This document shows, piece after piece, positions 23,899 through 44,622 of a stretch of 64,000 nt of DNA. The position numbers and the translations under genes are program-made. Positions within the stretch are counted from its first letter, which is position 1. Each line of letters opens with the position of its first letter. This DNA comes from Escherichia phage vB_EcoM_G17: sequence record MK327931.1; one strand, written 5' to 3'. The notes beneath the pieces were generated by a model. It was given only the letters and a program-made list of their open reading frames with translations, had not been told where the DNA came from and did not search any database.

Positions 23899-24961
<1,063 letters not shown>

Positions 24962-27269: not shown

Positions 27270-28572
<1,303 letters not shown>

Positions 28573-28657: not shown

Positions 28658-30060
<1,403 letters not shown>

Positions 30061-30095
30061 AATAAAAGGAGCAACATTTTGTTGCTCCTTTTTTA

Positions 30096-30097
<2 letters not shown>
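30061..30097. terminator. bidirectional rho-independent terminator
   Basis: ggagcaac-atttt-gttgctcc with A-run upstream and T-run downstream, between convergent genes. Confidence 0.7.
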
Positions 30098-31571
<1,474 letters not shown>

Positions 31572-31717
31572 CTAGTGCCATCACTTAAGATTATACCATT
31601 ATCACAAACATCAATCACAGTACCCGTTACCTTTACACCACCAGTAAGATAAAAATCATATATAACGTTAGCATCTATTGTAAAAATATCTTTCATATAT
31701 TATACCCATAAGAAAAG

Positions 31718-31734
31718 GGATTCATAGAATCCCT
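31718..31734 (-). terminator. terminator hairpin after nrdB
   Basis: perfect 7-bp stem gggattc/gaatccc followed on the minus strand by UUUUCUU. Confidence 0.5.
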
Positions 31735-31746
31735 GTTAGTTTGAAT

Positions 31747-32871
31747 TTATAGTTTGAATGGTGTGAATGTATCTACTTGGATATCATTCACAATACCACC
31801 AATGATATAAGAACTTATTTCAGTTTCTTGTGGTGCAACTTGTACTGAACCACCACTAACCCAATGCTCAGTCCAAGGTAGTGGGTTACTCTTAGATACG
31901 GTATATGGACATTTAATTCCTAGTGCAGTCATACGCTTAGAACCAATCCAACGAACATATTGTTTTAGGATTTCTGCATTCAGCCCAATGATTGAACCAT
32001 CTTTAAAGAGGAAGTCTGCCCAAGCTTCTTCTTGACGGATAGCAGACATAAACATTTCCAGTACTTCATCATAACACTCTTCTGCTATTTTTACCATATC
32101 TGGATCTTCTTTTTTCAGAAGACGTAGAATCATTTGGGTTGCTGCTAGGTGTAGGTTTTCATCACGACAGATTAGACGGATAATCTTAGCATTACCTTCC
32201 ATTAGATTGTTTTCAGCAAACGCCCAAGAACACGCAAAGCTTGCATAAAAACGAACACCTTCAAGAATGTTAATACTATTCAGACACAACCAAAGTTTTT
32301 TCTTTAGTTCGTACAAACTAATTTCAACTGTTTCACCATTGATTGTATGTGTCCCAACGCCCAATGCACGGTATAAAGTTCCTAATACATCAAGTTCATC
32401 GTAGTATTTGGAAACATCAGCCGCACAATCTGTGATTTCTGGAATGTCCAACATAGTATCAAATACTTCAGATGGATTAGGATAAATGTTACGAATAATG
32501 TGAGTGTATGATTTGCTATGAATCGCACCTTCAAAGAATGCCCATGTCTCTATAAAGTTCTCTAGTTCAGGTAGAGATGCATATGGAAGTAACATTAGGT
32601 TTGGACCACGACCTTGTACGGAATCAAGAAGAATTTGACGTTTCAAGTTAGAGGTAAAAATGTGCTTCTCGGAATCATTAAGGTTGGCAAAATCAATTTT
32701 ATCTTTAGATACGTCAACTTCACCAGGAGTCCAGAAGAAACTTTTCTGTTGCTCTGTTAGTTTTTCAAGTGTAGAGTATTTGTTACTTTCAAAGCGTTGG
32801 ATATCAACACTTTCATCAAAAAACATATTTTTTTCTAGGTGAGACTTCTCGTTAATTTTGAAAACTGACAT
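31747..32871 (-). CDS. nrdB: ribonucleotide reductase small (beta) subunit, class Ia
   Basis: 374-aa ORF with overall R2-like sequence; immediately downstream of nrdA. Confidence 0.85.
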   Translation of the reverse strand: MSVFKINEKSHLEKNMFFDESVDIQRFESNKYSTLEKLTEQQKSFFWTPGEVDVSKDKIDFANLNDSEKHIFTSNLKRQILLDSVQGRGPNLMLLPYASLPELENFIETWAFFEGAIHSKSYTHIIRNIYPNPSEVFDTMLDIPEITDCAADVSKYYDELDVLGTLYRALGVGTHTINGETVEISLYELKKKLWLCLNSINILEGVRFYASFACSWAFAENNLMEGNAKIIRLICRDENLHLAATQMILRLLKKEDPDMVKIAEECYDEVLEMFMSAIRQEEAWADFLFKDGSIIGLNAEILKQYVRWIGSKRMTALGIKCPYTVSKSNPLPWTEHWVSGGSVQVAPQETEISSYIIGGIVNDIQVDTFTPFKL

Positions 32872-32902
32872 ATATATTCCTTTATATATTTTGAAATAAT
32901 AA

Positions 32903-32920
32903 TCCCGCCGAAGCGGGATC
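32903..32920 (-). promoter_or_regulatory. intercistronic C(UUCG)G tetraloop hairpin between nrdA and nrdB
   Basis: minus-strand transcript reads aucccgc-uucg-gcgggau. Confidence 0.55.
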
Positions 32921-32925
32921 TTAAA

Positions 32926-35244
32926 TTAGATTTTACAACTATCACAATCACCTTCATCCAAATCAGGAAGTGATGGTAATACAAATTGTCCAGATTCTGG
33001 TTTGGCAGCTTCTTTCAGTACTTTTTCAACGTCTACTTCATCTGAACCATCATTTGTATTATGATAATAAAGATTTTTCAAACCAACTTTATATGCATAC
33101 ATAAGTTCAGTTAGAAGAGTTGACATTGGCAACTTACCATCAGGGAAGTGTATTGGGTTATAACTAGTATTAACACTGATACTTTGGTCAATGTATTTTT
33201 GTAGAACACCACAGATTTGTAGATAACCAATGTTATCTTTCTGATCCCATAGTAAATCATATTTGTTTTTCAACTTATTGATTTCTGGAACTACTTGTTT
33301 AAGAATACCATCCTTAGATAGTTTCTTCGTTACAAGAGAACGTGGCTTTTCAATACCGTTAGTACTGTTACTGATTTGTGCACTTGTTTCTGCTGGCATT
33401 AATGCCATTGTTGTTGCGTTACGAATACCATATTCTTTGATATCGGCACGTAAGGATTCCCAATCTTGTTTTAGTTCTTTAGTTACTAATTCATCAATGT
33501 CCGATTTATAAGTATCGATTGGAAGGATACCTTTGGCATATTTTAGATTATCAAATCCTTCACACTTACCTTTCTCTTTAGCAAGCTGTACAGAAGATTT
33601 AATTAGATAGTAAGACCATGCCTCGGCCCACTCGTTAACTGTTTCTAGTGCTGCTTCATTATAACGTAAACCACGTTTAGCAAGGAAGTATGCAAAGTTA
33701 ATAATACCAACACCTAGTGGACGATACATTTTTGTAGCACGGTCAGCATGAACTACTGGGTAGTCTTGATAGTCTAATAGAGAATCAAGAGCACGAACAG
33801 AAAGATCACATGCCGTTTCCATATCTTCTGGACGGTCAAAGTTACCCCAGTTGATTGCACTCAATGTACATAAACTAATCAAACCTTCCCCAGTATTAAT
33901 GTCATCAAATGGCACAGATGGTAGTGCGATTTCTTGACACAAGTTGGATTGTTCAATAGGTGCAATAGATTCAATAAATGTTGAATGAGTGTTTGCATGG
34001 TCAATATTTTGAATATAGATACGCCCAGTTTCAGCACGCTCAGTCATTAAAGTACTGAATACTTCAACAGCAGGTACGGATTTTTTACGGATGCTTTGGT
34101 CAGCTTCGTATTTTTTATATAACTTTTCAAATTCTTTTTGATCAGAGCAGAATGCTTCATATAGCCCAGGGACTTCATTAGGACTAAAGAATGTAATATT
34201 CTTTCCATCAACCAAACGTTGATACAAAGTTTTGTTTACTTGGAAACAATAGTCCAGTTGACGCACACGGTTAAACTCAGTACCTTTGTTATTTTTAAGG
34301 ACTACCAAGTTATCAAATTCCAAATGCCACAATGGGAAGTGAACAGTTGCTGCACCACCACGAACACCACCTTGTGAACAGCTTTTAACAGTCTTAGCAG
34401 TAGCTGCAATGAACGGAATCAGCCCAGTGTGTACTGCATCACCTGAACGAATCTCGGAGTCCAGAGCACGAATGCGGCCCATATTAATACCAAGACCAGC
34501 TTTACGTGAAATATAACGTAGAATAGCGTGGTTAGAGGAACCAATACTATCCAAGCTGTCACCAACGTTTAGTACTACACAAGAGCTAAACTGACGTGTA
34601 TTTGTACGTAGACCAGCCATAATAGGCGTAGGAAGACTAATGTCAAAGTTACTTACTGCATCATAAAACTTTTTAACATATGACATACGAACAGAACGAT
34701 CATACTCCATAAAGATGATTGCTGCAATAGTCATATATGCCATTTGTGGAGTTTCATAAATTTTCTTAGTAACGCGATTTTTGTAAAGGTATTTTCCTTC
34801 CCATTGACGCATTGCAACATAAGTAAATTTATCGTCACGTTTATGTTTGATATAACGTCCAAGCTCTTCTATTTCTTGAAGAGTATATTTCTCAAGAATT
34901 TCAGGATCATATATTTTGGTATCAACCATTTCTTGAAGATGAGCAGTATATTTAATTGGGTCATACTGCCCATATACTTGCTTACGAATACTATAGTTTA
35001 ATAGTCTTCCAGCAACATATTGGTAATTAGGTGTATCTTCTGAAATAAGTTCTGCTGCTGCTTTAATAAGAATATCATGAATAGTACTAGTTTCAATACC
35101 TTCATAAAACTGAAGCTGTGCTCGGATTTCAATTTCAGAAACTGAAATACCACTTAAACCTTCAGCAGCGAAAAATAAAATTTGATGGATCTTATCCAAT
35201 GATAACGGCTCTTTCATTCCATTACGCTTGGTTACGTTAATCAT
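32926..35244 (-). CDS. nrdA: ribonucleotide reductase large (alpha) subunit, class Ia
   Basis: N-terminal ATP-cone, catalytic core, C-terminal Cys pair (CDSCKI); 772 aa. Confidence 0.9.
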   Translation of the reverse strand: MINVTKRNGMKEPLSLDKIHQILFFAAEGLSGISVSEIEIRAQLQFYEGIETSTIHDILIKAAAELISEDTPNYQYVAGRLLNYSIRKQVYGQYDPIKYTAHLQEMVDTKIYDPEILEKYTLQEIEELGRYIKHKRDDKFTYVAMRQWEGKYLYKNRVTKKIYETPQMAYMTIAAIIFMEYDRSVRMSYVKKFYDAVSNFDISLPTPIMAGLRTNTRQFSSCVVLNVGDSLDSIGSSNHAILRYISRKAGLGINMGRIRALDSEIRSGDAVHTGLIPFIAATAKTVKSCSQGGVRGGAATVHFPLWHLEFDNLVVLKNNKGTEFNRVRQLDYCFQVNKTLYQRLVDGKNITFFSPNEVPGLYEAFCSDQKEFEKLYKKYEADQSIRKKSVPAVEVFSTLMTERAETGRIYIQNIDHANTHSTFIESIAPIEQSNLCQEIALPSVPFDDINTGEGLISLCTLSAINWGNFDRPEDMETACDLSVRALDSLLDYQDYPVVHADRATKMYRPLGVGIINFAYFLAKRGLRYNEAALETVNEWAEAWSYYLIKSSVQLAKEKGKCEGFDNLKYAKGILPIDTYKSDIDELVTKELKQDWESLRADIKEYGIRNATTMALMPAETSAQISNSTNGIEKPRSLVTKKLSKDGILKQVVPEINKLKNKYDLLWDQKDNIGYLQICGVLQKYIDQSISVNTSYNPIHFPDGKLPMSTLLTELMYAYKVGLKNLYYHNTNDGSDEVDVEKVLKEAAKPESGQFVLPSLPDLDEGDCDSCKI

Positions 35245-35284
35245 GTGTCATCCTTGTTTTTTGATGTAAATTTCTTTTTTTAGT

Positions 35285-35310
35285 GGAAGAAAAAGGCGGG
35301 ACGCCTTTTA
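35285..35310 (-). terminator. rho-independent terminator
   Basis: stem aaaggcg/cgccttt followed on the minus strand by UUUUUCUUC. Confidence 0.5.
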
Positions 35311-35889
35311 AGGTTTGTCCCACCCACGATATACAAATTCTATATGATATCCTGAATTTAAATAATCCGAGTTAACTATGTTAAATTGCATATTTCCAGT
35401 TGTAGAATCATATGCAGGATCTTCAAATGAGATAGAAATAATTGCGTCAGTTCTATTTGTATTATTTGACTGTGCAATCATCGTGTTTGTACCAGCAGCT
35501 ACAATTTGAATAGTTCCTGATTCCAAAACCGTTTCGGTATCATCATATGCAATATAATCGATGAATACTCTACTTTCACTTTCAAGAATAACTTCTATAC
35601 TTTCTTGATTTTGTGGAAGATCAACTTTAAACGGTCTGTTAATTATTTTTGATACCGTTCTCCACGGTGAAAATTCTGTAATTATTTCTACGTTTTCTTT
35701 ACCTGAATTTGGATCAGTAGTCCAAGTTCTACCTGCAACTAAGCTGGCGGGGTCAGATGATGATGGAAGGCCAATAAAAACACGACCCACATCAGTACTG
35801 AATCCTATCTGACCTTTTTCTAATGCATCAGGTAAGTCTCTCTGTTTACCAGTTCTTACTTGTTGTAAAGCAATTTGTTGTTGTGCCAT
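35308..35889 (-). CDS. hypothetical protein
   Basis: 193-aa ORF. Confidence 0.5.
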   Translation of the reverse strand: MAQQQIALQQVRTGKQRDLPDALEKGQIGFSTDVGRVFIGLPSSSDPASLVAGRTWTTDPNSGKENVEIITEFSPWRTVSKIINRPFKVDLPQNQESIEVILESESRVFIDYIAYDDTETVLESGTIQIVAAGTNTMIAQSNNTNRTDAIISISFEDPAYDSTTGNMQFNIVNSDYLNSGYHIEFVYRGWDKP

Positions 35890-35917
35890 AAAAACTATCT
35901 CCTATAGTATTATAGGA

Positions 35918-36490
35918 TTATTTAGCTTTTTCTTTAACTTCCGCAATACGCTCATTAATTAGTTGAGATACAACTGAGCTATCTACAGAAGATAAAATTT
36001 GTTCTGGTACTAAAGATTTTAAATGTTTAACATAGTTGGAAACACTTTTAAATTCTTTAGTCTGTAATGCTTCTTTGATAATGTCCAAATCTTCTTTAGA
36101 TGAAACAACACGCTCAATAACGACTTCATCTTCTTCCAATTCAGGAGCAAGTTCTTCTGCAATAATTTCAACTTCTTCAGAAACTTTAACTTGTTCTTCA
36201 CTATCAACAACATACTCTTGGATAACTTCTGGTGGTACATTGCGTGATACTTCATCAACACTAATATCTTGTGCAATTTGTTCTTTAATTTCTTCAACAG
36301 GTTTAGCACCACGTTGTTTATAATCTTTGATATTTAGAATTAGCTTATTTGATAAATCAAGTTTATCAATCTCTTCTTCACTAAGTTTAATTACTTCTTC
36401 TAAATCATAACCTTTACTTACTAGTGCACGAATTGTATATAGATCTTGTTTCATTTTTTTATGCTGCTCCATTTGATTCAATTTCTCCAC
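35918..36490 (-). CDS. acidic coiled-coil protein
   Basis: 190-aa Glu-rich ORF. Confidence 0.5.
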   Translation of the reverse strand: MEKLNQMEQHKKMKQDLYTIRALVSKGYDLEEVIKLSEEEIDKLDLSNKLILNIKDYKQRGAKPVEEIKEQIAQDISVDEVSRNVPPEVIQEYVVDSEEQVKVSEEVEIIAEELAPELEEDEVVIERVVSSKEDLDIIKEALQTKEFKSVSNYVKHLKSLVPEQILSSVDSSVVSQLINERIAEVKEKAK

Positions 36491-37178
36491 GTAAAATATA
36501 GTATTGTTCTACACGTTCAATCCACATATTGACTGCATCTTTGAAGTCTTGACCTTCTATGACAAACTCTTGATATTGTAGATTGTTAGGATCTTTTCTT
36601 ACACAGATGAAAATCACACCACGTTCTATATTAGTACCAAACATTTGATTATGGGCTAATGCATATGCTGCAATTTGCATACGATAATTTTCGATTTGTC
36701 CCCACTTCTTAACTTTACGGGAATTTTTATAATCCATAATGGTTGGGATTCCATCATGAACACCTACTAAATCAGTTGTTCCGGCCCATAAACCTTCATA
36801 GTACAATGGGACTTCCTGTCCCCATACTTCATTAATTCTAGGCCATGCTTCTTGCTGAATTTTGTCAGCCATTCTACGTGCAAGAACTCGAATTGGCATA
36901 CCGCCTTCATGGTCTGGCTTTCCTTCCAATCTAAATTCCAAGTTCTCATGCATAAAAGTACCAACTGTACATGCTTCTAATGTAATCTCATTAGCCTTTT
37001 CTTCACCAACAAATTCTCTCCATTTCTTTAAACCTTCGTCATTCGAGGTCGCACTTAGAATTGTTGTTACTGACGGCAGATTACCTGTTGGAGTTGAATA
37101 AAGGCGACCTTCTGGGCCGCCTTCAATTCTATTGTAACCAACATATGTATATCTGCTAACAATTGGTGGTGTGTACAT
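36459..37178 (-). CDS. PD-(D/E)xK nuclease (RecB/Cas4-like fold)
   Basis: TTDLVG ... MDYKNSRK ... QIAAYALA pattern (D, DxK, QxxxY). Confidence 0.5.
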   Translation of the reverse strand: MYTPPIVSRYTYVGYNRIEGGPEGRLYSTPTGNLPSVTTILSATSNDEGLKKWREFVGEEKANEITLEACTVGTFMHENLEFRLEGKPDHEGGMPIRVLARRMADKIQQEAWPRINEVWGQEVPLYYEGLWAGTTDLVGVHDGIPTIMDYKNSRKVKKWGQIENYRMQIAAYALAHNQMFGTNIERGVIFICVRKDPNNLQYQEFVIEGQDFKDAVNMWIERVEQYYILRGEIESNGAA

Positions 37179-37217
37179 CCGTGTACTCCTAATTATAGCA
37201 TTATATTTTAATTTGTC

Positions 37218-37553
37218 TCAGTTTTTTTGTTTATTTGCTGTCACAGCAGCTTTTGTGGCCCAATCTTCAACTTGCTCTTCAGAATCTTGCTCGACTTCTT
37301 CTGAACCTTCTGCTGAATTTCCTGCAAAAGTTACAACATCAGAATTAGCATCCTGTACAAAAGGAAGGGAATTCAAAATGTCCATCATTACATTGTATGG
37401 AACATCGATGTTGGTTCTCTTTTTAATTTCAGAAATCAAAGATTGAACATTTACTTCTTCTCGACCCGTGGACACTAAAGACAACGCAATAGTAGTAATC
37501 ATATTGCGTATATCTTTACCAGGAGCCTCTTCAGTAAGATCACGAAATCTCAT
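37218..37553 (-). CDS. hypothetical protein
   Basis: 111-aa ORF. Confidence 0.45.
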   Translation of the reverse strand: MRFRDLTEEAPGKDIRNMITTIALSLVSTGREEVNVQSLISEIKKRTNIDVPYNVMMDILNSLPFVQDANSDVVTFAGNSAEGSEEVEQDSEEQVEDWATKAAVTANKQKN

Positions 37554-37569
37554 GTAGAATTGTCCTTAA

Positions 37570-38226
37570 TTATTTTTTAACGTATCCTAGAACACGTTTA
37601 ACTTTCTTTTCATTCTCAGAAAGCCATGTTTTCATTTCTTCTTTTGAACTAAAGTATTTAGTACCCACAGTTCCGCGAATACTTTCCATTTTTACACCAA
37701 CTTTACTTGGTTTAACAGATTCTTTCATTTCACGTTCAGTTGGTACTGGCTCAGAGATAATGTCTTCTTCAAAGTCTGCGTCTGCATCCATATCAAAAGT
37801 TGGGGTATCTGCTGCAATATCAATATCAACATCTTCACTTCCAATATCAGAAACATCTGGACCGTCAGTGATATCACCAGTTAGTTTAAGTGTTTCAGTA
37901 CTGATTTTGTCTTTTACATCCATTAAGGTAGTAACTGCATGTTGTAGTAGATGGCGAACATTATCACTAAAATTTTGTGCAGCATCTAGACCTTGCTCGG
38001 CTTTAATACGGTCAAGTAATGGGCCTAGTACGTCAACACCCATGTTGTTAATAACCTCAGATTGACGTTGGAGTTTATCCACAATCTCACCTTTTACTGA
38101 AAGAACAATTTCTGCTTTTTCAATATTAGATTCATTTAGTTGAATAAACTTCATAGCTTCTGCACGAGAAGCTGCTTCCATTAGTTTTTTATATTTTGAC
38201 ATTTGTATTTCCTTATAAAATATCAC
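37570..38226 (-). CDS. hypothetical acidic protein
   Basis: 218-aa ORF. Confidence 0.5.
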   Translation of the reverse strand: MIFYKEIQMSKYKKLMEAASRAEAMKFIQLNESNIEKAEIVLSVKGEIVDKLQRQSEVINNMGVDVLGPLLDRIKAEQGLDAAQNFSDNVRHLLQHAVTTLMDVKDKISTETLKLTGDITDGPDVSDIGSEDVDIDIAADTPTFDMDADADFEEDIISEPVPTEREMKESVKPSKVGVKMESIRGTVGTKYFSSKEEMKTWLSENEKKVKRVLGYVKK

Positions 38227-38234
38227 TCATTTAT

Positions 38235-38906
38235 TTACTTTATATAACCTTCGCCTTTTAGAAAGTTTAATACACGCTCTTTTAATTTATACGCTTCAGC
38301 TTTCTTTTCTGCAATAATTATATCTAAATCTTTTGCTTCATCATACTTCGATTCATTAAGTACGCGTTGACGTTTCTGGGCTGCTTTCAATGCTTCACTA
38401 ATCACATTCGTGTATTGAAGACCCGAACTGATTATACCAAGTACTTTTGCATCTGTCAACATTCTTCCTTCATTAAGAAGATTAACTAATGTAAGTGCTG
38501 CTTCATACATCATAATATTATTCATGATAATTTGTGAACTATGATTACACTTAATGCTATAAACTTTAGTAGATTTAGTACCTTGTACTTTTTCTTCCAC
38601 TAAACTCCAATTAGTTTTTGGTTTAAGAGGTGCTTGTGATGGTCGTGGCGAAGGTACTGGTGAATTCCCTGATAAATGTTCATTATACGGAGAATTGTAT
38701 TGAACCATATGTGGATGTTGTGGTTCACCATAATCCATACCTGCTTCATTTAATGAAGTTAAAATAGAAGCCATAGCACCGATATCACCACCAGTTTTAT
38801 ATGGAACCCCCGATGCGTTATGTGTTTCACCAGCTTCAATGTCATTCAATCCACTTAACAAATCAGCCATCTGATTAACTGATTGTTGATCATATTCGTA
38901 ATTCAT
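38235..38906 (-). CDS. hypothetical protein
   Basis: 223-aa ORF. Confidence 0.5.
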   Translation of the reverse strand: MNYEYDQQSVNQMADLLSGLNDIEAGETHNASGVPYKTGGDIGAMASILTSLNEAGMDYGEPQHPHMVQYNSPYNEHLSGNSPVPSPRPSQAPLKPKTNWSLVEEKVQGTKSTKVYSIKCNHSSQIIMNNIMMYEAALTLVNLLNEGRMLTDAKVLGIISSGLQYTNVISEALKAAQKRQRVLNESKYDEAKDLDIIIAEKKAEAYKLKERVLNFLKGEGYIK

Positions 38907-39121
38907 TTACTACTCCTAACTGTTTGGTAAGATTCAGTACCGTCATCATTTTCTATTTTATTTAGAACACCACGTGATACCATCTTATCAGCTAATTCCT
39001 GATAATATTCATTTACCTTTTCAACTGGAACAGTACCGCGTGCTTTTATCTTTTGTAATAGTTTATATTCTTCATTAGAAACCATTGTATTGTGACCATG
39101 CACATTTAGTACTGTTCTCAT
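38903..39121 (-). CDS. hypothetical protein
   Basis: 72-aa ORF, overlapping-stop packing. Confidence 0.4.
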   Translation of the reverse strand: MRTVLNVHGHNTMVSNEEYKLLQKIKARGTVPVEKVNEYYQELADKMVSRGVLNKIENDDGTESYQTVRSSK

Positions 39122-40119
39122 TAACGACCTCGCATACGATGACAGAAATCGATAATTTGGTCTACCATGTCATCATTATCAGATTGTGATGTGTTTGCCA
39201 TAACACTTTCATCACCATAGATATCATCTTCTTTTTCAATATCAGAAATTGCATGTATCATTTCGCCCATACCAGGTGCGTGATGTGACAATGGTGATGG
39301 TGTATCAGGATTACTATCAGGCTCTAAACTGGAATTAGCCATAAGTTCACTGTTAATTTCTTGTGGAGATTTTTCTTCACGAATTGGATTATTTTGATTA
39401 TCAATAGGATTAACATCACTCAAAGGAAAAACGTTCAACTCATTTGGCTTAGTCCCACTTTTAGTAATAACTAATGATTGCTCCGGTGTTTGTCCTGGGT
39501 CAACACCAACTACAGGTTCAACCGAATCTGTCCCGCTTTGTGTACCAGGAACACTAACTTTCATATTATTAGCATTTCTTTGCAACTCAGCTTGTTTCAT
39601 TTTAGCTTGAGTTTGTGGATTGACTTGTTGTTGACCCTGAGAAACATTCATTTTAGCAATTTGTTTTGCTTGCATTTGTGTGGCTTGATTTTGTAAATCT
39701 TCAAATACAATTGCTTTTAATTCTTGTGTGGTTAGTTTTGTTATATCTGAATATGTATAATTTTTATGATACTCTTCTGCTAATTGCTTTAGTGACATTG
39801 AATCAACAATACTATGAAGTTCAGTGCTTTCATTAATATGTTTGTTAACATTTTTAGTACTAAAATAATTATAACATTCACTCATCTGTGCTTTGTATTT
39901 TTGTAAAATTTGGAATATTTCACGATTGTCAGAATTATCAATCGCAGAATTTAAAGTGATAAAATCACCTGCATCCATATTATCAAGAATAACAGAAACA
40001 TCAACATTCAAATTATGTGCATCTGCGAACTTTTGAAGTTCAGTTGCTGTTTGGTTTATATCCATAATTTCTCCATATAAAATAAAAAGACCTCTGTCTT
40101 GCTTTATGATATTTATCAC
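39121..40119 (-). CDS. hypothetical Gln/Asn-rich protein
   Basis: 332-aa ORF. Confidence 0.5.
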   Translation of the reverse strand: MINIIKQDRGLFILYGEIMDINQTATELQKFADAHNLNVDVSVILDNMDAGDFITLNSAIDNSDNREIFQILQKYKAQMSECYNYFSTKNVNKHINESTELHSIVDSMSLKQLAEEYHKNYTYSDITKLTTQELKAIVFEDLQNQATQMQAKQIAKMNVSQGQQQVNPQTQAKMKQAELQRNANNMKVSVPGTQSGTDSVEPVVGVDPGQTPEQSLVITKSGTKPNELNVFPLSDVNPIDNQNNPIREEKSPQEINSELMANSSLEPDSNPDTPSPLSHHAPGMGEMIHAISDIEKEDDIYGDESVMANTSQSDNDDMVDQIIDFCHRMRGR

Positions 40120-40121
40120 AA

Positions 40122-40514
40122 TTAAGAAAAGGTCTGTTTGCTGATGCTAATGTTAATATCATCACCAGATGTGATAAATTTTGTTATTCGTTTTCCATTT
40201 AATTCGGTTGGTAGAACCAATGGTATACCATTCAAACGAAGTTCGACATCCATTGGTAATGCGAATTTGAATGTGCTTATGGTACATTTTCCCCAAGAAA
40301 TTGGCATGTTATAAAAAGATGAATTATTATCTTTATATAAATCGACTTCATTTTTAACAACGCTTACCATCATTGGATAGTCATATACCATAATAGCTTC
40401 CAACAACCTAGACAAGTTCATAGCACCAGTGAACTTAGAATCTATGATTGTTGGGGTTTTACCATCACCAATATCTACTACAGTGTGAATTGTGTAGAAT
40501 GTATATGGTTTCAT
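40122..40514 (-). CDS. hypothetical protein
   Basis: 130-aa ORF. Confidence 0.45.
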   Translation of the reverse strand: MKPYTFYTIHTVVDIGDGKTPTIIDSKFTGAMNLSRLLEAIMVYDYPMMVSVVKNEVDLYKDNNSSFYNMPISWGKCTISTFKFALPMDVELRLNGIPLVLPTELNGKRITKFITSGDDINISISKQTFS

Positions 40515-40705
40515 TCTTTGTCCTTATCTTTTTTCTCTACGACTTTGTATCCAAAGAAGTTAGTAGGAGGCAATCTACGATGTAATGGATAATGTAAACC
40601 AGTACTGACTGATGCAATAGCACCTGCTGAAGTAGCTCCAGAAGATGCATTTTCTTTGATATTCTTTTTCTTCATATTAATTTCCTTTATTACGTTTTTC
40701 ATCAA
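40511..40705 (-). CDS. hypothetical protein
   Basis: 64-aa ORF. Confidence 0.35.
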   Translation of the reverse strand: MMKNVIKEINMKKKNIKENASSGATSAGAIASVSTGLHYPLHRRLPPTNFFGYKVVEKKDKDKE

Positions 40706-40949
40706 GTGCTATATTCTCTAACCCTTTTTGAAACTTTTTATAATCTCGGTTTTTTATACTTAGAAATAAGCGTTTTTTTAAATCTTCAGCATCAGTTTGG
40801 TTAAACTCATCTTCAATGCTCTCCAATAAATGAATCACAGAGTTTATTGCGTGGTCGGCACGATTACTAAAACTCTGTAATGTATCTTTCTCTGGCGTAT
40901 AGTCAACTATACTATCAAGTAGATTCTTTTTATTGGATTTACTAGACAT
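40677..40949 (-). CDS. hypothetical protein
   Basis: 90-aa ORF. Confidence 0.4.
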   Translation of the reverse strand: MSSKSNKKNLLDSIVDYTPEKDTLQSFSNRADHAINSVIHLLESIEDEFNQTDAEDLKKRLFLSIKNRDYKKFQKGLENIALDEKRNKGN

Positions 40950-40952
40950 TTA

Positions 40953-42473
40953 TCATTTCCTTTGATTTAACCATTGCTTCATTGCATGAACACGATCAGT
41001 ACCAGCATGTGTCTGTGGATTCTGTATTTCGTTTTGTGTCGTAGAGTTAGGAGCACTATCAGTATTTAGTGTTACTGTATTGTCAGGTTGCACAGATGGT
41101 GATTTAGCTGCACCAGAAAGCGAATGACGTAATGTTTGCATAGTGCTGGGTGGTAACGCCATGTTCCCTCCACCAATCTTAGAAACACCGCTGTGACGGA
41201 ATCCATTACCTTCGGTTTCCATTTGTTGTACTGTAGTTGCGTGGTCAAGAACTCTCAATGAATCAATATCATATGACATACGCAAACGGGAACCTACTGC
41301 ACTACTGTTACGTGTTTTTTGGAAATCAAACCATAGTTCGCCAGTTTCTTTTTTTGCTTCAATATAAATTACGTTATCAGCAGTATAAATTTTTGAAATA
41401 CCACCAGCAATCTGACTTTGACTTTTCTTATCTTCGTCCATACCACTACGGTTAAACTGAGATGCAGTGAAAACAGTCAAATCCATTTTGGATGCAAGAG
41501 CACGTAATTCTTCTGATACAAATTTATCTTTAGTAAATGTATTGGATTTATCATTTGGTCCAAGACGATTAGAAGTTAATAGATCCAAATAGTCCACGCA
41601 TACATAATCAAGTTTGATTTCCATCTTAATTTGTAATTCACGTAGATAACTTTCAATATCGTCTGTGGTTGTTACAGATTCAGGTAAGCGTTTAATACGC
41701 AACATACCACTGTTTTTACCTTCAACTTTAACAGCAAATCCAATCTTTTCAGCTTCATTTTTTACGTTACTGAGTTTTGATTCAGTCATCATACCATAGA
41801 TACGAACAGCAACCAACTCTTCAGCTAGTTCAAGTGAAATGTATGCACCATTCATTCCAGCTTTCGCAAAGTTAACTGCTAAATTTTGCAGTACTACTGA
41901 TTTACCACCACCTGATGCAGCAGCAAAGATCTCTAACTCTCTACGCCCAAATCCACCGAAAAGTTTGTAATCAAGAGTTTCCCAACCACTCTTAAATGAT
42001 CCTTGCATTGTACTGAGTGAGCGGATTGTATCTTCAGGGTTTTCAAAAATATCCAAACCTAACTCATTCTGTACCGTTACCAACATTGCTTCTCGGATTA
42101 GTTCTTCGATTCCACCATATTTTTTCTGATGGACAAGTTCCATTCCTTTTTCAACGGCTAAAGCTAATGCTTTATGGCGACAAAATTCACCACAGGTATC
42201 AAGTACTGATTGTTTATGTAATTCTTGAACTTCATATTGATCGTATTGATAACCACCTTTAACTTCAATATCTTTCAAAGTAGGTGATGAACTATATTTT
42301 GCAGCATAATCATGCACGTATTGAATACTTTCATGAAATGTTTTATCAAAATATTCTGGTTTAAGGATATTTTTACAACGTACATATAAATCAGGATTAC
42401 TGAAAATCTGAGATAATAAGTATTGTTGTGCATTAATCCCATATTGTTTCACATCCACTGTGCTTTGAATCAT
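40953..42473 (-). CDS. 41: replicative DNA helicase (gp41-like, DnaB family)
   Basis: Walker A AASGGGKS, RecA-like core, 506 aa, adjacent to primase. Confidence 0.85.
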   Translation of the reverse strand: MIQSTVDVKQYGINAQQYLLSQIFSNPDLYVRCKNILKPEYFDKTFHESIQYVHDYAAKYSSSPTLKDIEVKGGYQYDQYEVQELHKQSVLDTCGEFCRHKALALAVEKGMELVHQKKYGGIEELIREAMLVTVQNELGLDIFENPEDTIRSLSTMQGSFKSGWETLDYKLFGGFGRRELEIFAAASGGGKSVVLQNLAVNFAKAGMNGAYISLELAEELVAVRIYGMMTESKLSNVKNEAEKIGFAVKVEGKNSGMLRIKRLPESVTTTDDIESYLRELQIKMEIKLDYVCVDYLDLLTSNRLGPNDKSNTFTKDKFVSEELRALASKMDLTVFTASQFNRSGMDEDKKSQSQIAGGISKIYTADNVIYIEAKKETGELWFDFQKTRNSSAVGSRLRMSYDIDSLRVLDHATTVQQMETEGNGFRHSGVSKIGGGNMALPPSTMQTLRHSLSGAAKSPSVQPDNTVTLNTDSAPNSTTQNEIQNPQTHAGTDRVHAMKQWLNQRK

Positions 42474-42495
42474 CTATGTTCCCTCATTATATGTA

Positions 42496-43551
42496 TTACA
42501 TCCATTTATCCGTTTGAGCTTTAATATAAAATGGCTCATCTACTATACTATCATGTATTAATTGTAAACAAAATAACCTACCAAATCGTGCACAAGCTTC
42601 TTCAAAGTCTTTGATATGACGTATTGTACTACCTTCTCTTACAGCACCAAAGTCTGGGAAGGAAACACTGAATCCATTTTCAAGTGCTTGGTCTATAGTT
42701 ATTAATCCATCTTTATCTCTATCTGGAACAATAACTATTTTTTTACCTTTTTGCTGTGCATCTTTTAATACATCAATCTGTACGTTTGATAATTTAAAGT
42801 TATTAGCAGATACACCACCCATTAATGCTGCGTCTAACGGACCCTCACATACTAAAATTGTTTTTATTCGTTCATCTTTTAATAAATCATAGTTATATAG
42901 TATATTAGTACTTACTTGATTTATGAACCTGTATGTACTTCCAGGATCTTTTAATTTATGTCGTGCAGTATAACCAATAATTTTACCATTCATGAAATAT
43001 GGAATAATAAATCTGTCATACATTTTATGTTCTTTATTAGGTGACCAATATAATTCTAAGTCTAACAGATATGGGTTTCTTTCATTGACATTATGCAAAA
43101 CACTTATAAATTCTTGTGGAATTTTATCTTCAGGTAAAGAAGCCCATTCCCAAAATGTTTTTGCATTTGATGGCAAATCACGTACTGTTACTCGGTCATA
43201 CAATTTTGATGCAACAGTTTCTTGTGCAGCAAAATCACCGCTGTCAACCATTTCTTTAATATAAAACTTAACTAATTCTATTTCTTTATCTTGTGCACCA
43301 AAAGAAATGAGCAAAGACTCCATATCTTTGCTCATATATTTTCCTGGTTGCCAACCAGTTTTTAAACTACAGTTAAAGCAGTTATATGAAACGGAACCAT
43401 CTGCATTGAACATATGATTACCACGGTGCTTTGTATCCGGCCTTGAATGTCCTCTGAACACACAAGCTGGACAGTTGTGTTGTGACCATGTACCAATCGC
43501 AGGTACTGGATCATTCATAATTTGTGCCATTATGTTTTGTACAGCGTTCAT
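42496..43551 (-). CDS. 61: DNA primase (gp61-like)
   Basis: N-terminal zinc-binding Cys/His cluster (CPAC ... CFNC) plus Toprim-like core; 351 aa. Confidence 0.8.
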   Translation of the reverse strand: MNAVQNIMAQIMNDPVPAIGTWSQHNCPACVFRGHSRPDTKHRGNHMFNADGSVSYNCFNCSLKTGWQPGKYMSKDMESLLISFGAQDKEIELVKFYIKEMVDSGDFAAQETVASKLYDRVTVRDLPSNAKTFWEWASLPEDKIPQEFISVLHNVNERNPYLLDLELYWSPNKEHKMYDRFIIPYFMNGKIIGYTARHKLKDPGSTYRFINQVSTNILYNYDLLKDERIKTILVCEGPLDAALMGGVSANNFKLSNVQIDVLKDAQQKGKKIVIVPDRDKDGLITIDQALENGFSVSFPDFGAVREGSTIRHIKDFEEACARFGRLFCLQLIHDSIVDEPFYIKAQTDKWM

Positions 43552-43580
43552 AAGTTAATCCTTGTCTTTTCTTACAAATG

Positions 43581-43613
43581 ATTATAGCACACCTTCTAGT
43601 TTTGTCTCATCTA
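43581..43613 (-). promoter_or_regulatory. early promoter with extended -10 (TGTGCTATAAT)
   Basis: minus-strand GTGTGCTATAAT about 30 nt upstream of the primase start. Confidence 0.5.
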
Positions 43614-44584
43614 CGTATCAAAATTTTAGGTACTGTTAGGAAAGGGTCATACACTTTTCGGACAGCAGCATAGTCATATGGTACTGGAACAATTTTGGGA
43701 TGAATAGCAACCACCAAACGTAACCACATATAATTTCCTTTAAAATTAAATGCTTGTATTCCGTCAAGTTCTTTTGGAAAACCTTCTGAATCAATTCCAT
43801 TTTCAATATAATCCTTTCCATCTAATTTAATAATAAACCATTTATAGTTTTCATTATCATTAGGTACGTTGTTACACAAGCACCCTTGTAGCTGTATTCT
43901 ACCAATAAATTTATCAAAATAGATTGCAATACTACTTAATCCATCTACTAATCCAAACTGCATTTGTGCTGGTAGTGGAGTTGATGCGAGAATATCATAT
44001 TCACCAATCATACCATTTCCAATTGGTTCATGATATAAACGCTTTATAGTTGTCCATGCTGGATTTTTATTAACTGATATTTCAGTACTGGGGACAAATA
44101 CAGGTGCTGCTTGGTCTGAAATTATTAGCTCTGCTGATGCCTCAAAGTTCATCCCTGTATATAGATATTGTGTTGGTTCTATAAGTGAACCATCCATTGT
44201 TACTTTAGTAATGCTCCATCTATATTTTGAACCAGGACTGGTATCTTGAATAACTCCTGCTGGAACAATACATCCATAATATACTTTCTTTTTATTTCCT
44301 AATGTTTGTCTTGCTTGTCCACTTTCTGATAACCAACTGGGTTCTTGTTTTTCTAATACAACATCAAATAGTTTAGTATTATTTCGTGCATCAAAAATCA
44401 TAAATGTAAGATATTCATTATCTTTCAATAAAGTATATTTTCCATCAGCGTTGTGAACAGTAAAAGATAAATTATTATTTGCCCCTCTATATATAGTTAG
44501 TTTTTCATTGCTATATGGCATATTAAAATTGCCCAATGATACTTCCTGATTATAAGGGTACATAAACACGCCGTGATGAGCCAT
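43607..44584 (-). CDS. late protein, putative virion structural protein
   Basis: start moved to the internal ATG at 44584 (GGAAGGA Shine-Dalgarno); palindromic late-promoter-like box upstream. Confidence 0.45.
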   Translation of the reverse strand: MAHHGVFMYPYNQEVSLGNFNMPYSNEKLTIYRGANNNLSFTVHNADGKYTLLKDNEYLTFMIFDARNNTKLFDVVLEKQEPSWLSESGQARQTLGNKKKVYYGCIVPAGVIQDTSPGSKYRWSITKVTMDGSLIEPTQYLYTGMNFEASAELIISDQAAPVFVPSTEISVNKNPAWTTIKRLYHEPIGNGMIGEYDILASTPLPAQMQFGLVDGLSSIAIYFDKFIGRIQLQGCLCNNVPNDNENYKWFIIKLDGKDYIENGIDSEGFPKELDGIQAFNFKGNYMWLRLVVAIHPKIVPVPYDYAAVRKVYDPFLTVPKILIRR

Positions 44585-44608
44585 AGTTTTTCCTTCCATA
44601 AATAATAG

Positions 44609-44622
44609 GTATAAATTTATAC
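44609..44622. promoter_or_regulatory. palindromic late-promoter-like element GTATAAATTTATAC (TATAAATT on both strands)
   Basis: perfect 14-nt palindrome between divergent genes; 7/8 match to TATAAATA in each direction. Confidence 0.4.

What the first reader, a model, noticed from the sequence alone, without database searches (positions are those of the whole stretch)
36459..37178. PD-(D/E)xK nuclease of uncertain role
The 239-aa ORF shows D ... DYK ... QxxxY spacing typical of RecB/Cas4/lambda-exonuclease-like nucleases. It could be a recombination exonuclease or an anti-defence nuclease.
Basis: inference. Interest (0 to 1): 0.35.

Follow-up and report, generated by a model that had tools for sequence, protein, structure and literature searches.

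The report
MGME1-like exonuclease of jumbo coliphage
This is a real, already annotated DNA-cutting enzyme gene of a giant E. coli phage, related to the human mitochondrial DNA-maintenance exonuclease MGME1 rather than to CRISPR Cas4, so it is an ordinary member of a large known phage family whose role during infection has never been tested.

Summary
A 239-aa ORF lies at 36459-37178 on the minus strand and carries D136, D149-Y-K151 and Q168-x3-Y172. The window is 100% identical to the Asteriusvirus jumbo coliphages slurp01 and Sharanji (121Q/PBECO4 group), where the gene is annotated "exonuclease" or "PD-(D/E)XK nuclease superfamily protein".

The gene belongs to PHROG 298 (E 2e-64), a family of thousands of stand-alone phage proteins of about 220-240 aa. 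Its only close solved relative is human mitochondrial MGME1/Ddk1: profile E 7e-16, and Foldseek E 5e-11 with TM 0.68-0.81 using an AlphaFold model of pLDDT 95. All MGME1 catalytic and DNA-contact residues are invariant in the phage family.

The gene fails the Cas4 definition, which requires a four-cysteine Fe-S module. The published "vCas4" label for this exact gene in phage Sharanji is therefore not supported. It has no SSAP partner of the lambda Exo/RecE type.

It lies in the replication and nucleotide-metabolism block, between the DnaB-type helicase and RNR. The phage also carries FEN, RNase HI, SbcCD, UvsX and gp32. The most likely function is a metal-dependent exonuclease that needs free ssDNA ends and trims flaps, tails or linear DNA during replication and recombination. 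The in-vivo role is inferred. The MGME1-phage link was published in 2013, so interest is low.

The parts
36459..37178 (-). CDS of the 239-aa MGME1/Ddk1-like PD-(D/E)xK exonuclease. It is identical to Sharanji gp312 (WNN14593.1) and SHEFM2K M2K_0462.
   Evidence: ORF listing; 100% identity to 21 phage records; annotation; PHROG 298 E 2.2e-64; PDB profile hit to MGME1 only, E 6.6e-16; fold match to MGME1, E 4.7e-11
37065..37073 (-). S36-V37-T38 of the invariant PSVTTIL motif. S36 and T38 correspond to the DNA-phosphate-binding Ser132 and Thr134 of human MGME1.
   Evidence: HMMER alignments; residue roles from PMC6237815; 39/39 invariant; invariant in the 6-way alignment with human MGME1
36927..37037 (-). 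Predicted helical arch (helices 48-57 and 59-84), equivalent to MGME1 helices alpha2 and alpha3. It contains W53 (= pin residue Trp152), H77 (= His180, metal ligand, motif Ia) and E81 (= Glu184). The first helix is about 7 residues shorter than in human MGME1. The second pin residue (Phe173) is replaced by C/A/T/S (one Q) at position 70.
   Evidence: DSSP of the AF2 model; alignment gaps; conservation counts; MGME1 structure description
36813..36815 (-). E122, motif I glutamate (= Glu223 of MGME1)
   Evidence: 39/39 invariant
36771..36773 (-). D136, motif II aspartate (= Asp238, ligand of both metal ions)
   Evidence: 39/39 invariant
36726..36734 (-). D149-Y150-K151, motif III (= Asp251-Trp252-Lys253).
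   Evidence: sequence read directly; (D and K 39/39 invariant; the middle residue is Y, H or F)
36663..36677 (-). Q168-I-A-A-Y172, motif IV QhxxY (= Gln271...Tyr275, phosphate contacts)
   Evidence: Q and Y 39/39 invariant
37079..37178 (-). N-terminal residues 1-33, a predicted small beta-meander with invariant Y12, R25 and Y27 (a GRxY signature). It is specific to the phage proteins and lies outside the region aligned to human MGME1.
   Evidence: DSSP strands 16-19, 25-29 and 32-36; invariant columns; PDB alignments start at residue 33-34; the G-R-x-Y pattern is seen in five phage lineages
37186..37190 (-). AGGAG Shine-Dalgarno sequence 8 nt upstream of the ATG
   Evidence: sequence read directly
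36459..36472 (-). 14-nt overlap between the end of the nuclease CDS and the ATG of the next ORF (35918-36472, 184 aa, acidic). This suggests translational coupling. The downstream ORF is not conserved next to distant homologues.
   Evidence: annotations; sequence; local BLASTP found no counterpart in L007, L010 or L011

Best explanation
The gene encodes an active, stand-alone, Fe-S-free PD-(D/E)xK DNA exonuclease of the MGME1/Ddk1-like family (PHROG 298). By homology with human MGME1, it should bind two Mg2+/Mn2+ ions through H77, D136 and D149 and the backbone carbonyl of Y150. K151 would position the attacking water, and E122 would support the second metal. A free single-stranded DNA end would pass under a helical arch (helices 48-57 and 59-84) and be held by S36, T38, Q168 and Y172. 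The enzyme would therefore need DNA ends, prefer ssDNA, and nibble ssDNA tails and flaps into short oligonucleotides. In the phage it is most likely expressed with the replication and nucleotide-metabolism genes and trims ssDNA flaps or tails on replication and recombination-dependent-replication intermediates. It would work alongside the phage's FEN, RNase HI, SbcCD, UvsX, gp32 and helicases, for example by shortening long flaps or tails that FEN handles poorly. It may also help degrade unwound linear DNA. What is shown: the ORF, family membership, a complete conserved active site, the predicted MGME1-like fold, absence of Fe-S cysteines, and the genomic context. What is inferred: substrate preference, polarity and the in-vivo role.
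For: Family: PHROG 298 E 2.2e-64; PDDEXK_1 above threshold. A profile of 39 homologues hits only MGME1 chains in the PDB at E 6.6e-16, over profile positions 33-232 of 233. Fold: the AF2 model has pLDDT 95.1. The top nine Foldseek PDB hits are all human MGME1 (E 4.7e-11 to 3e-9, TM 0.64-0.69 by query and 0.65-0.81 by target). The next hits are 3l0a at 4.7e-6, DinG (9kqh) at 2.5e-5, RecE at 4e-5, Cas4 at 5e-4 and lambda Exo at 2e-3. After the N-terminal meander, the secondary-structure order (six helices, five strands) equals that described for HsMGME1. Active site: S36, T38, W53, H77, E81, E122, D136, D149, K151, Q168 and Y172 map to MGME1 S132, T134, W152, H180, E184, E223, D238, D251, K253, Q271 and Y275. 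All are 39/39 invariant and are also invariant across four other phage lineages plus human MGME1. Mutating the human equivalents reduces or abolishes cleavage (PMC6237815). Context: the gene lies on the same strand as, and between, primase plus DnaB-type helicase and RNR. The window also holds a clamp loader, topo II, Dda/Pif1-type and UvsW-type helicases, RNase HI, a FEN-type exonuclease, UvsX and a gp32-like SSB. In Ackermannviridae the homologue sits between uvsY and a helicase, next to the clamp and clamp loader. In cyanophage and Cr30 it sits by phoH, with thymidylate synthase or ligase nearby. In distant jumbo phages the order nuclease-...-nrdA-nrdB is kept at 46-49% identity. MGME1 biochemistry (metal-dependent, ssDNA-preferring, needs free ends, no RNase activity) comes from PMC3597694 and PMC6237815.
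Against: No experiment on any phage member was found. Identity to human MGME1 is only about 23%, so polarity and substrate range could differ. Only one of the two 'structural pin' aromatics is conserved (W53 yes; position 70 is C/A/T/S/Q), and the first arch helix is shorter, so duplex unwinding or flap handling may differ. The phage already encodes FEN, RNase HI, two DnaQ-type exonucleases and SbcCD, so no replication or recombination step obviously lacks a nuclease. The conserved linkage to RNR may reflect inherited synteny rather than function. Expression timing is unknown, and promoter-like matches are not above chance.
Confidence: 0.8

Rival explanations
1. Nucleotide-salvage or DNA-clearance nuclease. 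Its main job would be to degrade host or other linear DNA, after unwinding by a phage helicase, to feed the dNTP pool. This parallels MGME1 acting with Twinkle and POLG exonuclease to destroy linear mtDNA. It uses the same biochemistry as the best explanation with a different in-vivo emphasis, and the two are not mutually exclusive.
For: The gene lies two ORFs upstream of nrdA/nrdB and a PRA-PH/MazG-type pyrophosphohydrolase. The nuclease-to-RNR order is conserved in PA5oct-like and metagenomic 296-544 kb phage contigs at 43-49% identity. Cyanophage homologues sit near thymidylate synthase, NrdC and PhoH. A pelagiphage paper refers to a homologous 'genome maintenance exonuclease 1' gene as putatively recycling dNTPs (PMC12404659). 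An abstract listed (PMC6584726) concerns degradation of mtDNA fragments after replication stalling in mitochondria; a role of MGME1 in degrading linear mtDNA is stated here from general knowledge.
Against: By general knowledge (not from a tool result), MGME1-type enzymes release short oligonucleotides rather than mononucleotides and need ssDNA ends, so other nucleases and a helicase would be required. Linkage to RNR can be explained by inherited synteny of the whole block. In Ackermannviridae the neighbours are recombination and replisome genes, not nucleotide-metabolism genes.
Confidence: 0.3
2. Viral solo Cas4 (vCas4) that interacts with the host CRISPR adaptation machinery or induces autoimmunity, as proposed for this exact gene (WNN14593.1) in the Sharanji genome paper.
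For: There are weak partial matches to Cas4 models: TIGR00372 at 27.1 bits (E 3e-6), PADLOC Cas4 models at E 8e-7 to 1e-2, and PHROG 1706 at E 3e-8. They cover only the shared core, about residues 108-218 for TIGR00372/PADLOC and 68-227 for PHROG 1706. The claim is published in PMC11895373.
Against: The TIGR00372 score of 27.1 is far below its cutoff of 65. All Cas4 family members have an Fe-S module with four conserved cysteines (PMC5704561). This protein has two cysteines (C70, C192), neither of them invariant. No column other than 192 reaches 30% Cys, and three homologues have no cysteine at all. Cas4 structures rank far below MGME1 in fold search (E 5e-4 and TM about 0.32, against E 5e-11 and TM about 0.7). 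No Cas4 chain appears in the PDB profile search. No cas genes or CRISPR context occur in any of the neighbourhoods examined.
Confidence: 0.04
3. A lambda Exo/RecE-type processive dsDNA 5'-3' exonuclease forming a two-component recombinase with a single-strand annealing protein.
For: It has the same superfamily and catalytic motifs. RecE (3h4r, E 4e-5) and lambda Exo (3sm4, E 2e-3) are fold matches. PHROG exonuclease families 69, 3953 and 1674 match weakly.
Against: There is no YqaJ/lambda-Exo Pfam match. TM-scores to RecE and lambda Exo are 0.28-0.5, against about 0.7-0.8 for MGME1. The flanking ORFs have no Pfam match and no SSAP signature. The downstream ORF is not conserved with the nuclease. 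The phage uses a UvsX/RecA-type recombinase with gp32 and SbcCD. MGME1 is a monomer, unlike the toroidal RecE and lambda Exo (PMC6237815). The oligomeric state here was not tested.
Confidence: 0.05
4. A sequence-specific restriction-type endonuclease. Some records label homologues 'restriction endonuclease type II-like'.
For: Annotation strings in several phage records, for example CBB, pEa_SNUABM_50, Vibrio phage 2.275.O and Munch. These names probably derive from the superfamily name.
Against: It carries the RecB/RecE-type accessory motifs (H motif, QhxxY) typical of exonucleases, and the full set of MGME1 DNA-end-binding residues. No adjacent methyltransferase is present in this window. The family is conserved across phages of unrelated hosts at one copy per genome within replication modules.
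Confidence: 0.02

Closest known systems
[quoted passage not shown]
   Same: It is the only significant sequence-profile match in the PDB (E 6.6e-16, nearly full length) and the best fold match (E 4.7e-11, TM up to 0.81). Helix and strand order are identical. All catalytic and phosphate-contact residues and one pin residue (W152 = W53) are conserved. There is no Fe-S cluster, and it is a stand-alone single-domain protein.
   Different: Identity is only about 23%. The phage protein has no mitochondrial targeting or disordered N-terminal region. Instead it has a conserved ~33-residue N-terminal beta-meander (GRxY). Its first arch helix is shorter, and the second pin aromatic (F173) is not conserved. 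It is encoded by a phage next to a T4-type replisome rather than working with POLG and Twinkle. Activity and polarity are untested.
PHROG 298 / Pfam PDDEXK_1 phage 'exonuclease' of cyanomyoviruses, Ackermannviridae, Rak2/121Q-like and PA5oct-like jumbo phages, Cr30, Rhizobium, Stenotrophomonas and PhiW-14 phages
   Same: It is a direct member: E 2.2e-64 to the PHROG, 981 phage records with a homologue, and the same length and motifs. The grouping of Ddk1/MGME1 with such phage exonucleases, and a proposed phage origin, were published in 2013 (PMC3597694).
   Different: Nothing substantive. The 121Q-like branch is 29-45% identical to the other phage lineages compared and keeps a clade-specific position upstream of RNR.
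CRISPR-associated Cas4 (TIGR00372; for example SSO0001 4IC1 and type I-C Cas4 8D3L)
   Same: It shares the PD-(D/E)xK core with the RecB-type motifs. Weak sub-threshold HMM matches cover about residues 108-218 for the Cas4 models, up to 68-227 for PHROG 1706. Both are end-dependent DNA nucleases.
   Different: It lacks the four-cysteine Fe-S module that defines Cas4, scores below the family cutoff (27 vs 65 bits), has much weaker fold similarity, and has no cas or CRISPR neighbourhood.
RecE and lambda exonuclease (YqaJ-type recombination exonucleases)
   Same: It has the same superfamily and the same two-metal chemistry and motifs I-IV (PMC6237815; PMC3597694). Both are phage-encoded.
   Different: Fold similarity is lower (TM 0.28-0.5). 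There is no SSAP partner and no YqaJ Pfam match. Those enzymes are toroidal oligomers acting on dsDNA ends, whereas MGME1-type enzymes are monomers that prefer ssDNA.

Membership tests
MGME1/Ddk1-like nucleases (including PHROG 298 phage exonucleases) | PD-(D/E)xK motifs I (E), II (D) and III (D-x-K), plus the RecB/RecE-type motif IV (QhxxY) and the motif Ia/V histidine | tested here: met
   E122, D136, D149-x-K151, Q168-x3-Y172 and H77 align to MGME1 E223, D238, D251-x-K253, Q271-x3-Y275 and H180. All are 39/39 invariant.
MGME1/Ddk1-like nucleases (including PHROG 298 phage exonucleases) | Significant full-length sequence similarity to MGME1, stronger than to other PD-(D/E)xK families | tested here: met
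   The profile-vs-PDB search returns only MGME1 chains at E about 1e-15 over positions 33-232. No Cas4, RecB, RecE or lambda Exo chain appears at E<=1. PHROG 298 scores E 2.2e-64 against 3e-8 for the next family.
MGME1/Ddk1-like nucleases (including PHROG 298 phage exonucleases) | MGME1 fold: six helices and five strands, with a helical arch (alpha2-alpha3) over the active site | tested here: met
   This rests on a predicted model only (pLDDT 95.1). The top nine Foldseek hits are MGME1, TM 0.64-0.81. Helices 48-57 and 59-84 correspond to alpha2 and alpha3, with alpha2 about 7 residues shorter.
MGME1/Ddk1-like nucleases (including PHROG 298 phage exonucleases) | Two-residue aromatic 'structural pin' (Trp152 and Phe173) for duplex unwinding and flap cleavage | tested here: inconclusive
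   W53 (= W152) is invariant. The position equivalent to F173 is C/A/T/S/Q and never aromatic. This is a feature described for the human enzyme and may not define the wider family.
MGME1/Ddk1-like nucleases (including PHROG 298 phage exonucleases) | Metal-dependent DNase that prefers ssDNA, requires free ends, has no RNase activity and acts as a monomer | not testable with these tools
   These biochemical properties are known for the human enzyme (PMC3597694; PMC6237815). They need an in-vitro assay.
Cas4 (CRISPR-associated or solo/viral Cas4) | [quoted passage not shown] | tested here: not met
   The definition comes from PMC5704561. The protein has only C70 and C192. Only the C192 column is Cys-rich (30 of 39), and three homologues have no Cys.
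Cas4 (CRISPR-associated or solo/viral Cas4) | Score above the curated cutoff of the Cas4 equivalog model TIGR00372 | tested here: not met
   27.1 bits against a cutoff of 65, and only model positions 58-137 of 180 match.
Cas4 (CRISPR-associated or solo/viral Cas4) | Genomic association with cas1/cas2 or CRISPR arrays (not obligatory for solo-Cas4) | tested here: not met
   No cas genes are annotated in the 64-kb window or its flanks, nor in six other neighbourhoods examined.
Lambda Exo/RecE (YqaJ-type) two-component recombination exonucleases | Match to the YqaJ/RecE nuclease family | tested here: not met
   The Pfam scan at E<=1 returns only PDDEXK_1 and a sub-threshold DUF2800 match. Fold matches are E 4e-5 (RecE) and 2e-3 (lambda Exo), with TM 0.28-0.5.
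Lambda Exo/RecE (YqaJ-type) two-component recombination exonucleases | Adjacent single-strand annealing protein partner (Red-beta, RecT, Erf or Sak type) | tested here: not met
   Both flanking ORFs (35918-36472 and 37218-37553) have no Pfam match. No neighbour is annotated as an SSAP. The phage's recombinase is UvsX/RecA-type.
RecB/AddAB-type helicase-nucleases | Nuclease domain fused to, or in complex with, SF1 helicase domains | tested here: not met
   The protein is a single 239-aa domain. Nearly all of the 150 best family representatives are 200-290 aa stand-alone proteins or shorter fragments.

The most novel reading that the evidence does not exclude
The phage enzyme could be the functional as well as the evolutionary counterpart of MGME1. 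It would act as a module with the phage's DnaB/Twinkle-class SF4 helicase and the proofreading polymerase, either to trim long SSB-coated flaps or to destroy linear DNA. The mitochondrial Twinkle-POLG-MGME1 'degradosome' and flap pathway would then have been inherited as a working unit from a phage of the T4-like/jumbo lineage, not recruited piecemeal. The phage-specific N-terminal GRxY beta-meander could be the docking element for the replisome.
Probability: 0.15. Interest if true: 0.5.

Novelty: already known. Interest (0 to 1): 0.2.

Why it matters
For genome annotation, this gene should be named "MGME1/Ddk1-like PD-(D/E)xK exonuclease". The names "Cas4/vCas4" and "type II restriction endonuclease" are not supported. 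The anti-CRISPR or autoimmunity role suggested for it in the Sharanji paper lacks support.

More broadly, the family is very common in T4-like, cyanophage, Ackermannviridae and jumbo phages: 981 phage genomes and thousands of metagenomic clusters. No biochemical or genetic study of a phage member was found. A simple characterisation would fill a gap in the T4-derived picture of phage replication and recombination, because T4 does not appear among the matching records. It would also give a tractable bacterial-virus model for the human disease gene MGME1.

None of this is surprising to a specialist. The gene is annotated, and its kinship with MGME1 was published in 2013.

Tried and rejected
1. 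**Sole flap or primer remover.** I considered that the nuclease replaces a missing T4 RNase H/FEN. This is rejected for this phage, because the window encodes a FEN-type 5'-3' exonuclease (57865-58851, PF02739) and an RNase HI (27270-27698).

2. **Resection nuclease replacing gp46/47.** Rejected, because SbcC/SbcD homologues and endonuclease VII lie just outside the window in the same genome.

3. **Acidic downstream ORF as a conserved partner or inhibitor.** The 184-aa ORF at 35918-36472 overlaps the nuclease stop. It has no Pfam match and no counterpart next to distant homologues, so it was dropped.

4. **Own promoter.** A TGnTATAAT-like motif (37192-37200, minus strand) abuts the Shine-Dalgarno sequence. 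Promoter-like matches in the region are not above shuffled expectation (11 vs 12.2), and a start there would remove the RBS, so it was not taken as evidence.

5. **Virion-packaged nuclease.** Many neighbours are labelled "virion structural protein". Text searches of the phAPEC6 proteome paper found no statement that this nuclease is virion-associated, and searches of the PA5oct omics paper for "exonuclease" and "nuclease" found nothing.

6. **MGME1-phage link as a new finding.** Rejected, because Szczesny et al. 2013 already reported it.

7. **Direct scan of the T4 genome.** Not completed; only the first 1 kb was fetched. The absence from T-even phages is inferred from the hit distribution: only 62 Escherichia-phage records match, and those listed are 121Q-like or Ackermannviridae-sized.
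Full report
**1. The observation**

The finding's coordinates coincide exactly with an ORF on the minus strand (ATG at 37178-37176, TAA at 36461-36459) that encodes 239 aa. An AGGAG Shine-Dalgarno sequence lies 8 nt upstream of the ATG.

The ORF is not a chance reading frame. The window is 34% GC and the stop-codon probability is about 0.08 per codon. The longest stop-free run in 20 shuffles was 178 codons. The protein also has thousands of homologues.

**2. Where the window comes from**

Window 30000-45000 is 100% identical to Escherichia phages vB_Eco_slurp01 and Sharanji, and 99.5-99.9% identical to SHEFM2K, PBECO4 and other jumbo phages of this group (genus Asteriusvirus, about 350 kb). 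The protein is 100% identical in 21 phage records. There it is annotated "exonuclease", "PD-(D/E)XK nuclease superfamily protein" or "hypothetical protein". It is Sharanji gp312 (WNN14593.1) and SHEFM2K M2K_0462.

**3. What the protein is**

- **Family libraries.** Pfam gives PDDEXK_1 just above its gathering score (24.2 vs 22 bits). PHROGs gives family 298 "exonuclease" at E 2.2e-64 over residues 2-232, and all other families are at E 3e-8 or weaker. NCBIfam and PADLOC give only sub-threshold partial Cas4 matches (TIGR00372 at 27.1 bits vs cutoff 65).
- **Solved structures, by sequence.** The single sequence already finds human MGME1 as its only PDB match (E 0.0045). A profile of 39 homologues spanning 44-100% identity (alignment A1) finds MGME1 chains at E 6.6e-16 to 2.3e-14 over profile positions 33-232. 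The only other entry in that search is a polysaccharide lyase at E 0.0089 (9ozd), taken as a chance match.
- **Solved structures, by fold.** An AlphaFold2 model built on A1 is very confident (mean pLDDT 95.1, pTM 0.89). Foldseek against the PDB returns nine MGME1 chains first (E 4.7e-11 to 3.1e-9; TM 0.64-0.69 normalised by query and 0.65-0.81 by target). Next come the uncharacterised exonuclease 3L0A (4.7e-6), a DinG chain 9KQH (2.5e-5), RecE (4e-5), Cas4 (5e-4), EXO5, ACE1 and lambda exonuclease (2e-3).
- **Secondary structure.** After a phage-specific N-terminal beta-meander (residues about 16-36), the order is six helices and five strands. This is the topology described for HsMGME1, including the alpha2/alpha3 helical arch, here helices 48-57 and 59-84.

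**4. The active site**

I used the HMMER alignments and checked their numbering against the residue numbers in the MGME1 structure paper (PMC6237815). The correspondences are:

| Phage | Human MGME1 | Role in MGME1 |
|---|---|---|
| S36, T38 | S132, T134 | phosphate contacts |
| W53 | W152 | structural pin |
| H77 | H180 | metal ligand A |
| E81 | E184 | DNA-binding residue (E184A slightly weakens cleavage) |
| E122 | E223 | motif I |
| D136 | D238 | binds both metals |
| D149 | D251 | metal ligand |
| K151 | K253 | orients the nucleophilic water |
| Q168, Y172 | Q271, Y275 | motif IV, phosphate contacts |

All of these are invariant in 39 of 39 homologues. They are also invariant in a six-way alignment with homologues from an Ackermannviridae phage, a cyanomyovirus, a PA5oct-like phage, Caulobacter phage Cr30 and the human enzyme. 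In the human enzyme, H180Q, E223Q, D238N, D251N, Q271A and Y275A reduce or abolish cleavage. The phage protein is therefore almost certainly an active nuclease using the same two-metal mechanism.

Three differences stand out. The residue equivalent to the second pin aromatic (F173) is C/A/T/S/Q in the phage family. The first arch helix is shorter by two gaps totalling seven residues. The phage proteins carry a conserved N-terminal module with invariant Y12, R25 and Y27 (a GRxY signature) that lies outside the region aligned to MGME1.

**5. What it is not**

- **Cas4.** The Sharanji genome paper names this exact protein a "solo Cas4 (vCas4)" that may engage host CRISPR-Cas and induce autoimmunity (PMC11895373; identity of the gene confirmed). 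Cas4 family members are defined by an Fe-S-binding module with four conserved cysteines (PMC5704561). This protein has two cysteines, neither invariant, and some homologues have none. It scores far below the Cas4 model cutoff, and its fold is much closer to MGME1 than to Cas4. No cas or CRISPR context is present in any neighbourhood examined. The vCas4 label is not supported.
- **Lambda Exo/RecE type.** There is no YqaJ match. The flanking ORFs have no Pfam match and no SSAP annotation. The phage's recombinase is UvsX/RecA-type.
- **Restriction enzyme.** "Type II restriction endonuclease-like" labels in some records probably reflect a superfamily name, not evidence.

**6. Context**

The gene sits in a long minus-strand block. 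Primase (42496-43551) and a DnaB-type helicase (40953-42473) lie upstream. After two small ORFs downstream come nrdA (32926-35244), nrdB (31747-32871) and a PRA-PH/MazG-type pyrophosphohydrolase.

The same window encodes the following:
- clamp loader and topoisomerase II;
- a Dda/Pif1-type helicase (25899-27242) and a UvsW-type helicase (48456-49940);
- RNase HI (27270-27698) and DHFR;
- two DnaQ-type 3'-5' exonucleases (6089-6778 and 49956-50774);
- UvsX (51283-52401) and a gp32-like SSB (52471-53523);
- a FEN-type 5'-3' exonuclease (57865-58851);
- large terminase and the start of a DNA polymerase gene.

SbcC/SbcD and endonuclease VII lie just beyond the window in the same genome. The phage therefore has a complete T4-style replication and recombination toolkit in addition to this enzyme. 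Simple "it replaces X" hypotheses fail for this phage.

The nuclease's stop overlaps by 14 nt the start of an acidic 184-aa ORF (pI 4.6). That ORF is not found next to distant homologues.

**7. Distribution and neighbourhoods elsewhere**

- 981 of 50,697 phage records carry a homologue (tblastn, E<=1e-5). They are cyanomyoviruses (Synechococcus, Prochlorococcus and "Cyanophage" records, about 450), Ackermannviridae and jumbo phages of Salmonella, Escherichia, Klebsiella and Dickeya, and phages of Vibrio, Rhizobium, Stenotrophomonas, Caulobacter, Delftia and others.
- Only 62 Escherichia-phage records match. The listed ones are 121Q-like or ~155-kb Ackermannviridae-sized genomes. This implies that T-even phages lack it, but I did not scan T4 directly.
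- An exhaustive profile search of 1.84 billion cluster representatives finds 8,443 clusters at E<=1e-3, 3,556 at E<=1e-10 and 781 at E<=1e-30. Most of the best 150 are stand-alone proteins of about 220-240 aa, and many of the rest are fragments.
- In Salmonella phage SKML-39 the gene lies between uvsY and a helicase, next to the clamp and clamp loader.
- In cyanophage S-RIM2 it lies between phoH and gp33, near thymidylate synthase and nrdC.
- In Cr30 it lies near phoH and ligase.
- In PA5oct-like Deifobo and in 296-kb and 544-kb metagenomic phage contigs, the order nuclease, then 2-4 genes, then nrdA, then nrdB is retained at 43-49% identity.
- Every context is DNA replication, recombination or nucleotide metabolism.

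**8. Mechanism and role**

*Shown:* an intact, conserved MGME1-type active site and a predicted MGME1 fold with the arch.

*From established knowledge of MGME1:* it is metal-dependent, has no RNase activity, strongly prefers ssDNA and requires free ends (PMC3597694). ssDNA passes under the helical arch, and catalysis uses two metals (PMC6237815).

*Inferred for the phage:* the enzyme trims ssDNA flaps or tails on replication and recombination-dependent-replication intermediates. A plausible niche is long, SSB-coated flaps or tails that FEN-type enzymes handle poorly. That would be analogous to the roles of MGME1 and DNA2 in mitochondria, a comparison I make from general knowledge.

A non-exclusive alternative is degradation of unwound linear (host) DNA for nucleotide supply. 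The deeply conserved position next to RNR suggests this, as does the dNTP-recycling idea mentioned for a pelagiphage homologue (PMC12404659). However, the RNR linkage could simply be inherited synteny.

I put about 0.8 on the identity and biochemical mechanism. For the in-vivo role I put roughly 0.5 on replication/recombination intermediate processing and 0.3 on DNA clearance or salvage.

**9. Novelty**

The gene is annotated in public records. The family is a defined PHROG, and JGI already labels many homologues "genome maintenance exonuclease 1". The kinship of Ddk1/MGME1 with exonucleases of cyanobacterial and proteobacterial Caudovirales, and a proposed phage origin analogous to POLRMT, POLG and Twinkle, were published in 2013 (PMC3597694). 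The finding is therefore already known.

This analysis adds three things: a residue-level and fold-level assignment for the jumbo-phage protein, a correction of the published vCas4 interpretation, and the observation that no phage member of the family was found to be characterised experimentally in the literature searched.

Noticed in passing
window 36459-37178 (-), equal to Sharanji gp312 / WNN14593.1: The Sharanji genome paper (PMC11895373) calls this exact gene a 'solo Cas4 (vCas4)' that may induce CRISPR autoimmunity. The protein lacks the four-cysteine Fe-S module and scores 27 vs 65 bits on the Cas4 model, so the published label looks wrong.
   Followed up: yes
window 35918-36472 (-): An acidic 184-aa ORF (pI 4.6, 23% D+E, no Pfam match) has a start codon that overlaps the nuclease stop by 14 nt, which suggests translational coupling. 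No counterpart was found beside distant homologues in L007, L010 or L011. Its function is unknown.
   Followed up: partly
window 57865-58851 (-), 27270-27698 (-), 6089-6778 (-), 49956-50774 (-): The same window encodes four more nucleases: a FEN-type 5'-3' exonuclease (PF02739), an RNase HI (PF00075) and two DnaQ-like 3'-5' exonucleases (Rv2179c-like and RNase_T). SbcCD and endonuclease VII lie just outside the window in the same genome. The division of labour among them is unknown.
   Followed up: partly
window 14131-14649 (-), 44982-45620 (-), 62993-63997 (-): Three separate ORFs are annotated 'DNA polymerase' in the SHEFM2K record (PHROGs 11127, 11778 and 262). Two of them are small (172 and 212 aa). 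They may be split or accessory polymerase pieces, or over-annotation.
   Followed up: no
window 37218-44650 (-) and elsewhere: Many small ORFs interspersed among replication genes are labelled 'virion structural protein' in the pharokka-annotated SHEFM2K record, through PHROGs seeded by Rak2-like phages. This is odd for a replication block. It may reflect packaged non-structural proteins or label propagation.
   Followed up: no
window 30096-30833 (-); L010 13876-14268: A PRA-PH/MazG-type nucleotide pyrophosphohydrolase is kept next to the RNR genes both here and in a distant 544-kb metagenomic phage contig (32% identity over 62 aa). This suggests a conserved nucleotide-pool module.
   Followed up: partly
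window 6858-7994 (-), 24458-24961 (-), 23899-24444 (-), about 61138-61440 (-): The SHEFM2K annotation carries several host-like auxiliary genes: a 'tellurite resistance protein', a 'translation initiation factor', an 'ATP-dependent protease' and a GroES co-chaperonin.
   Followed up: no
window 37192-37200 (-): An extended -10-like TGcTATAAT motif lies directly against the Shine-Dalgarno sequence of the nuclease gene. Promoter-like matches in the region are not above shuffled expectation (11 vs 12.2), so it is probably not meaningful.
   Followed up: yes
protein P0001 (identical to the window protein); P0044: NCBI holds the identical protein under an E. coli locus tag (GNZ01_06015), probably a phage contig inside a bacterial assembly. 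P0044 is a 399-aa metagenomic protein whose first 182 residues are 81% identical to this nuclease. It may be a fusion or a frameshift.
   Followed up: no
L005 3435-6173 (Salmonella phage SKML-39): In Ackermannviridae the homologue is inserted between a uvsY-like gene and a ~500-aa helicase. From memory, these are neighbours in T4. This hints at a recombination link for that lineage.
   Followed up: partly
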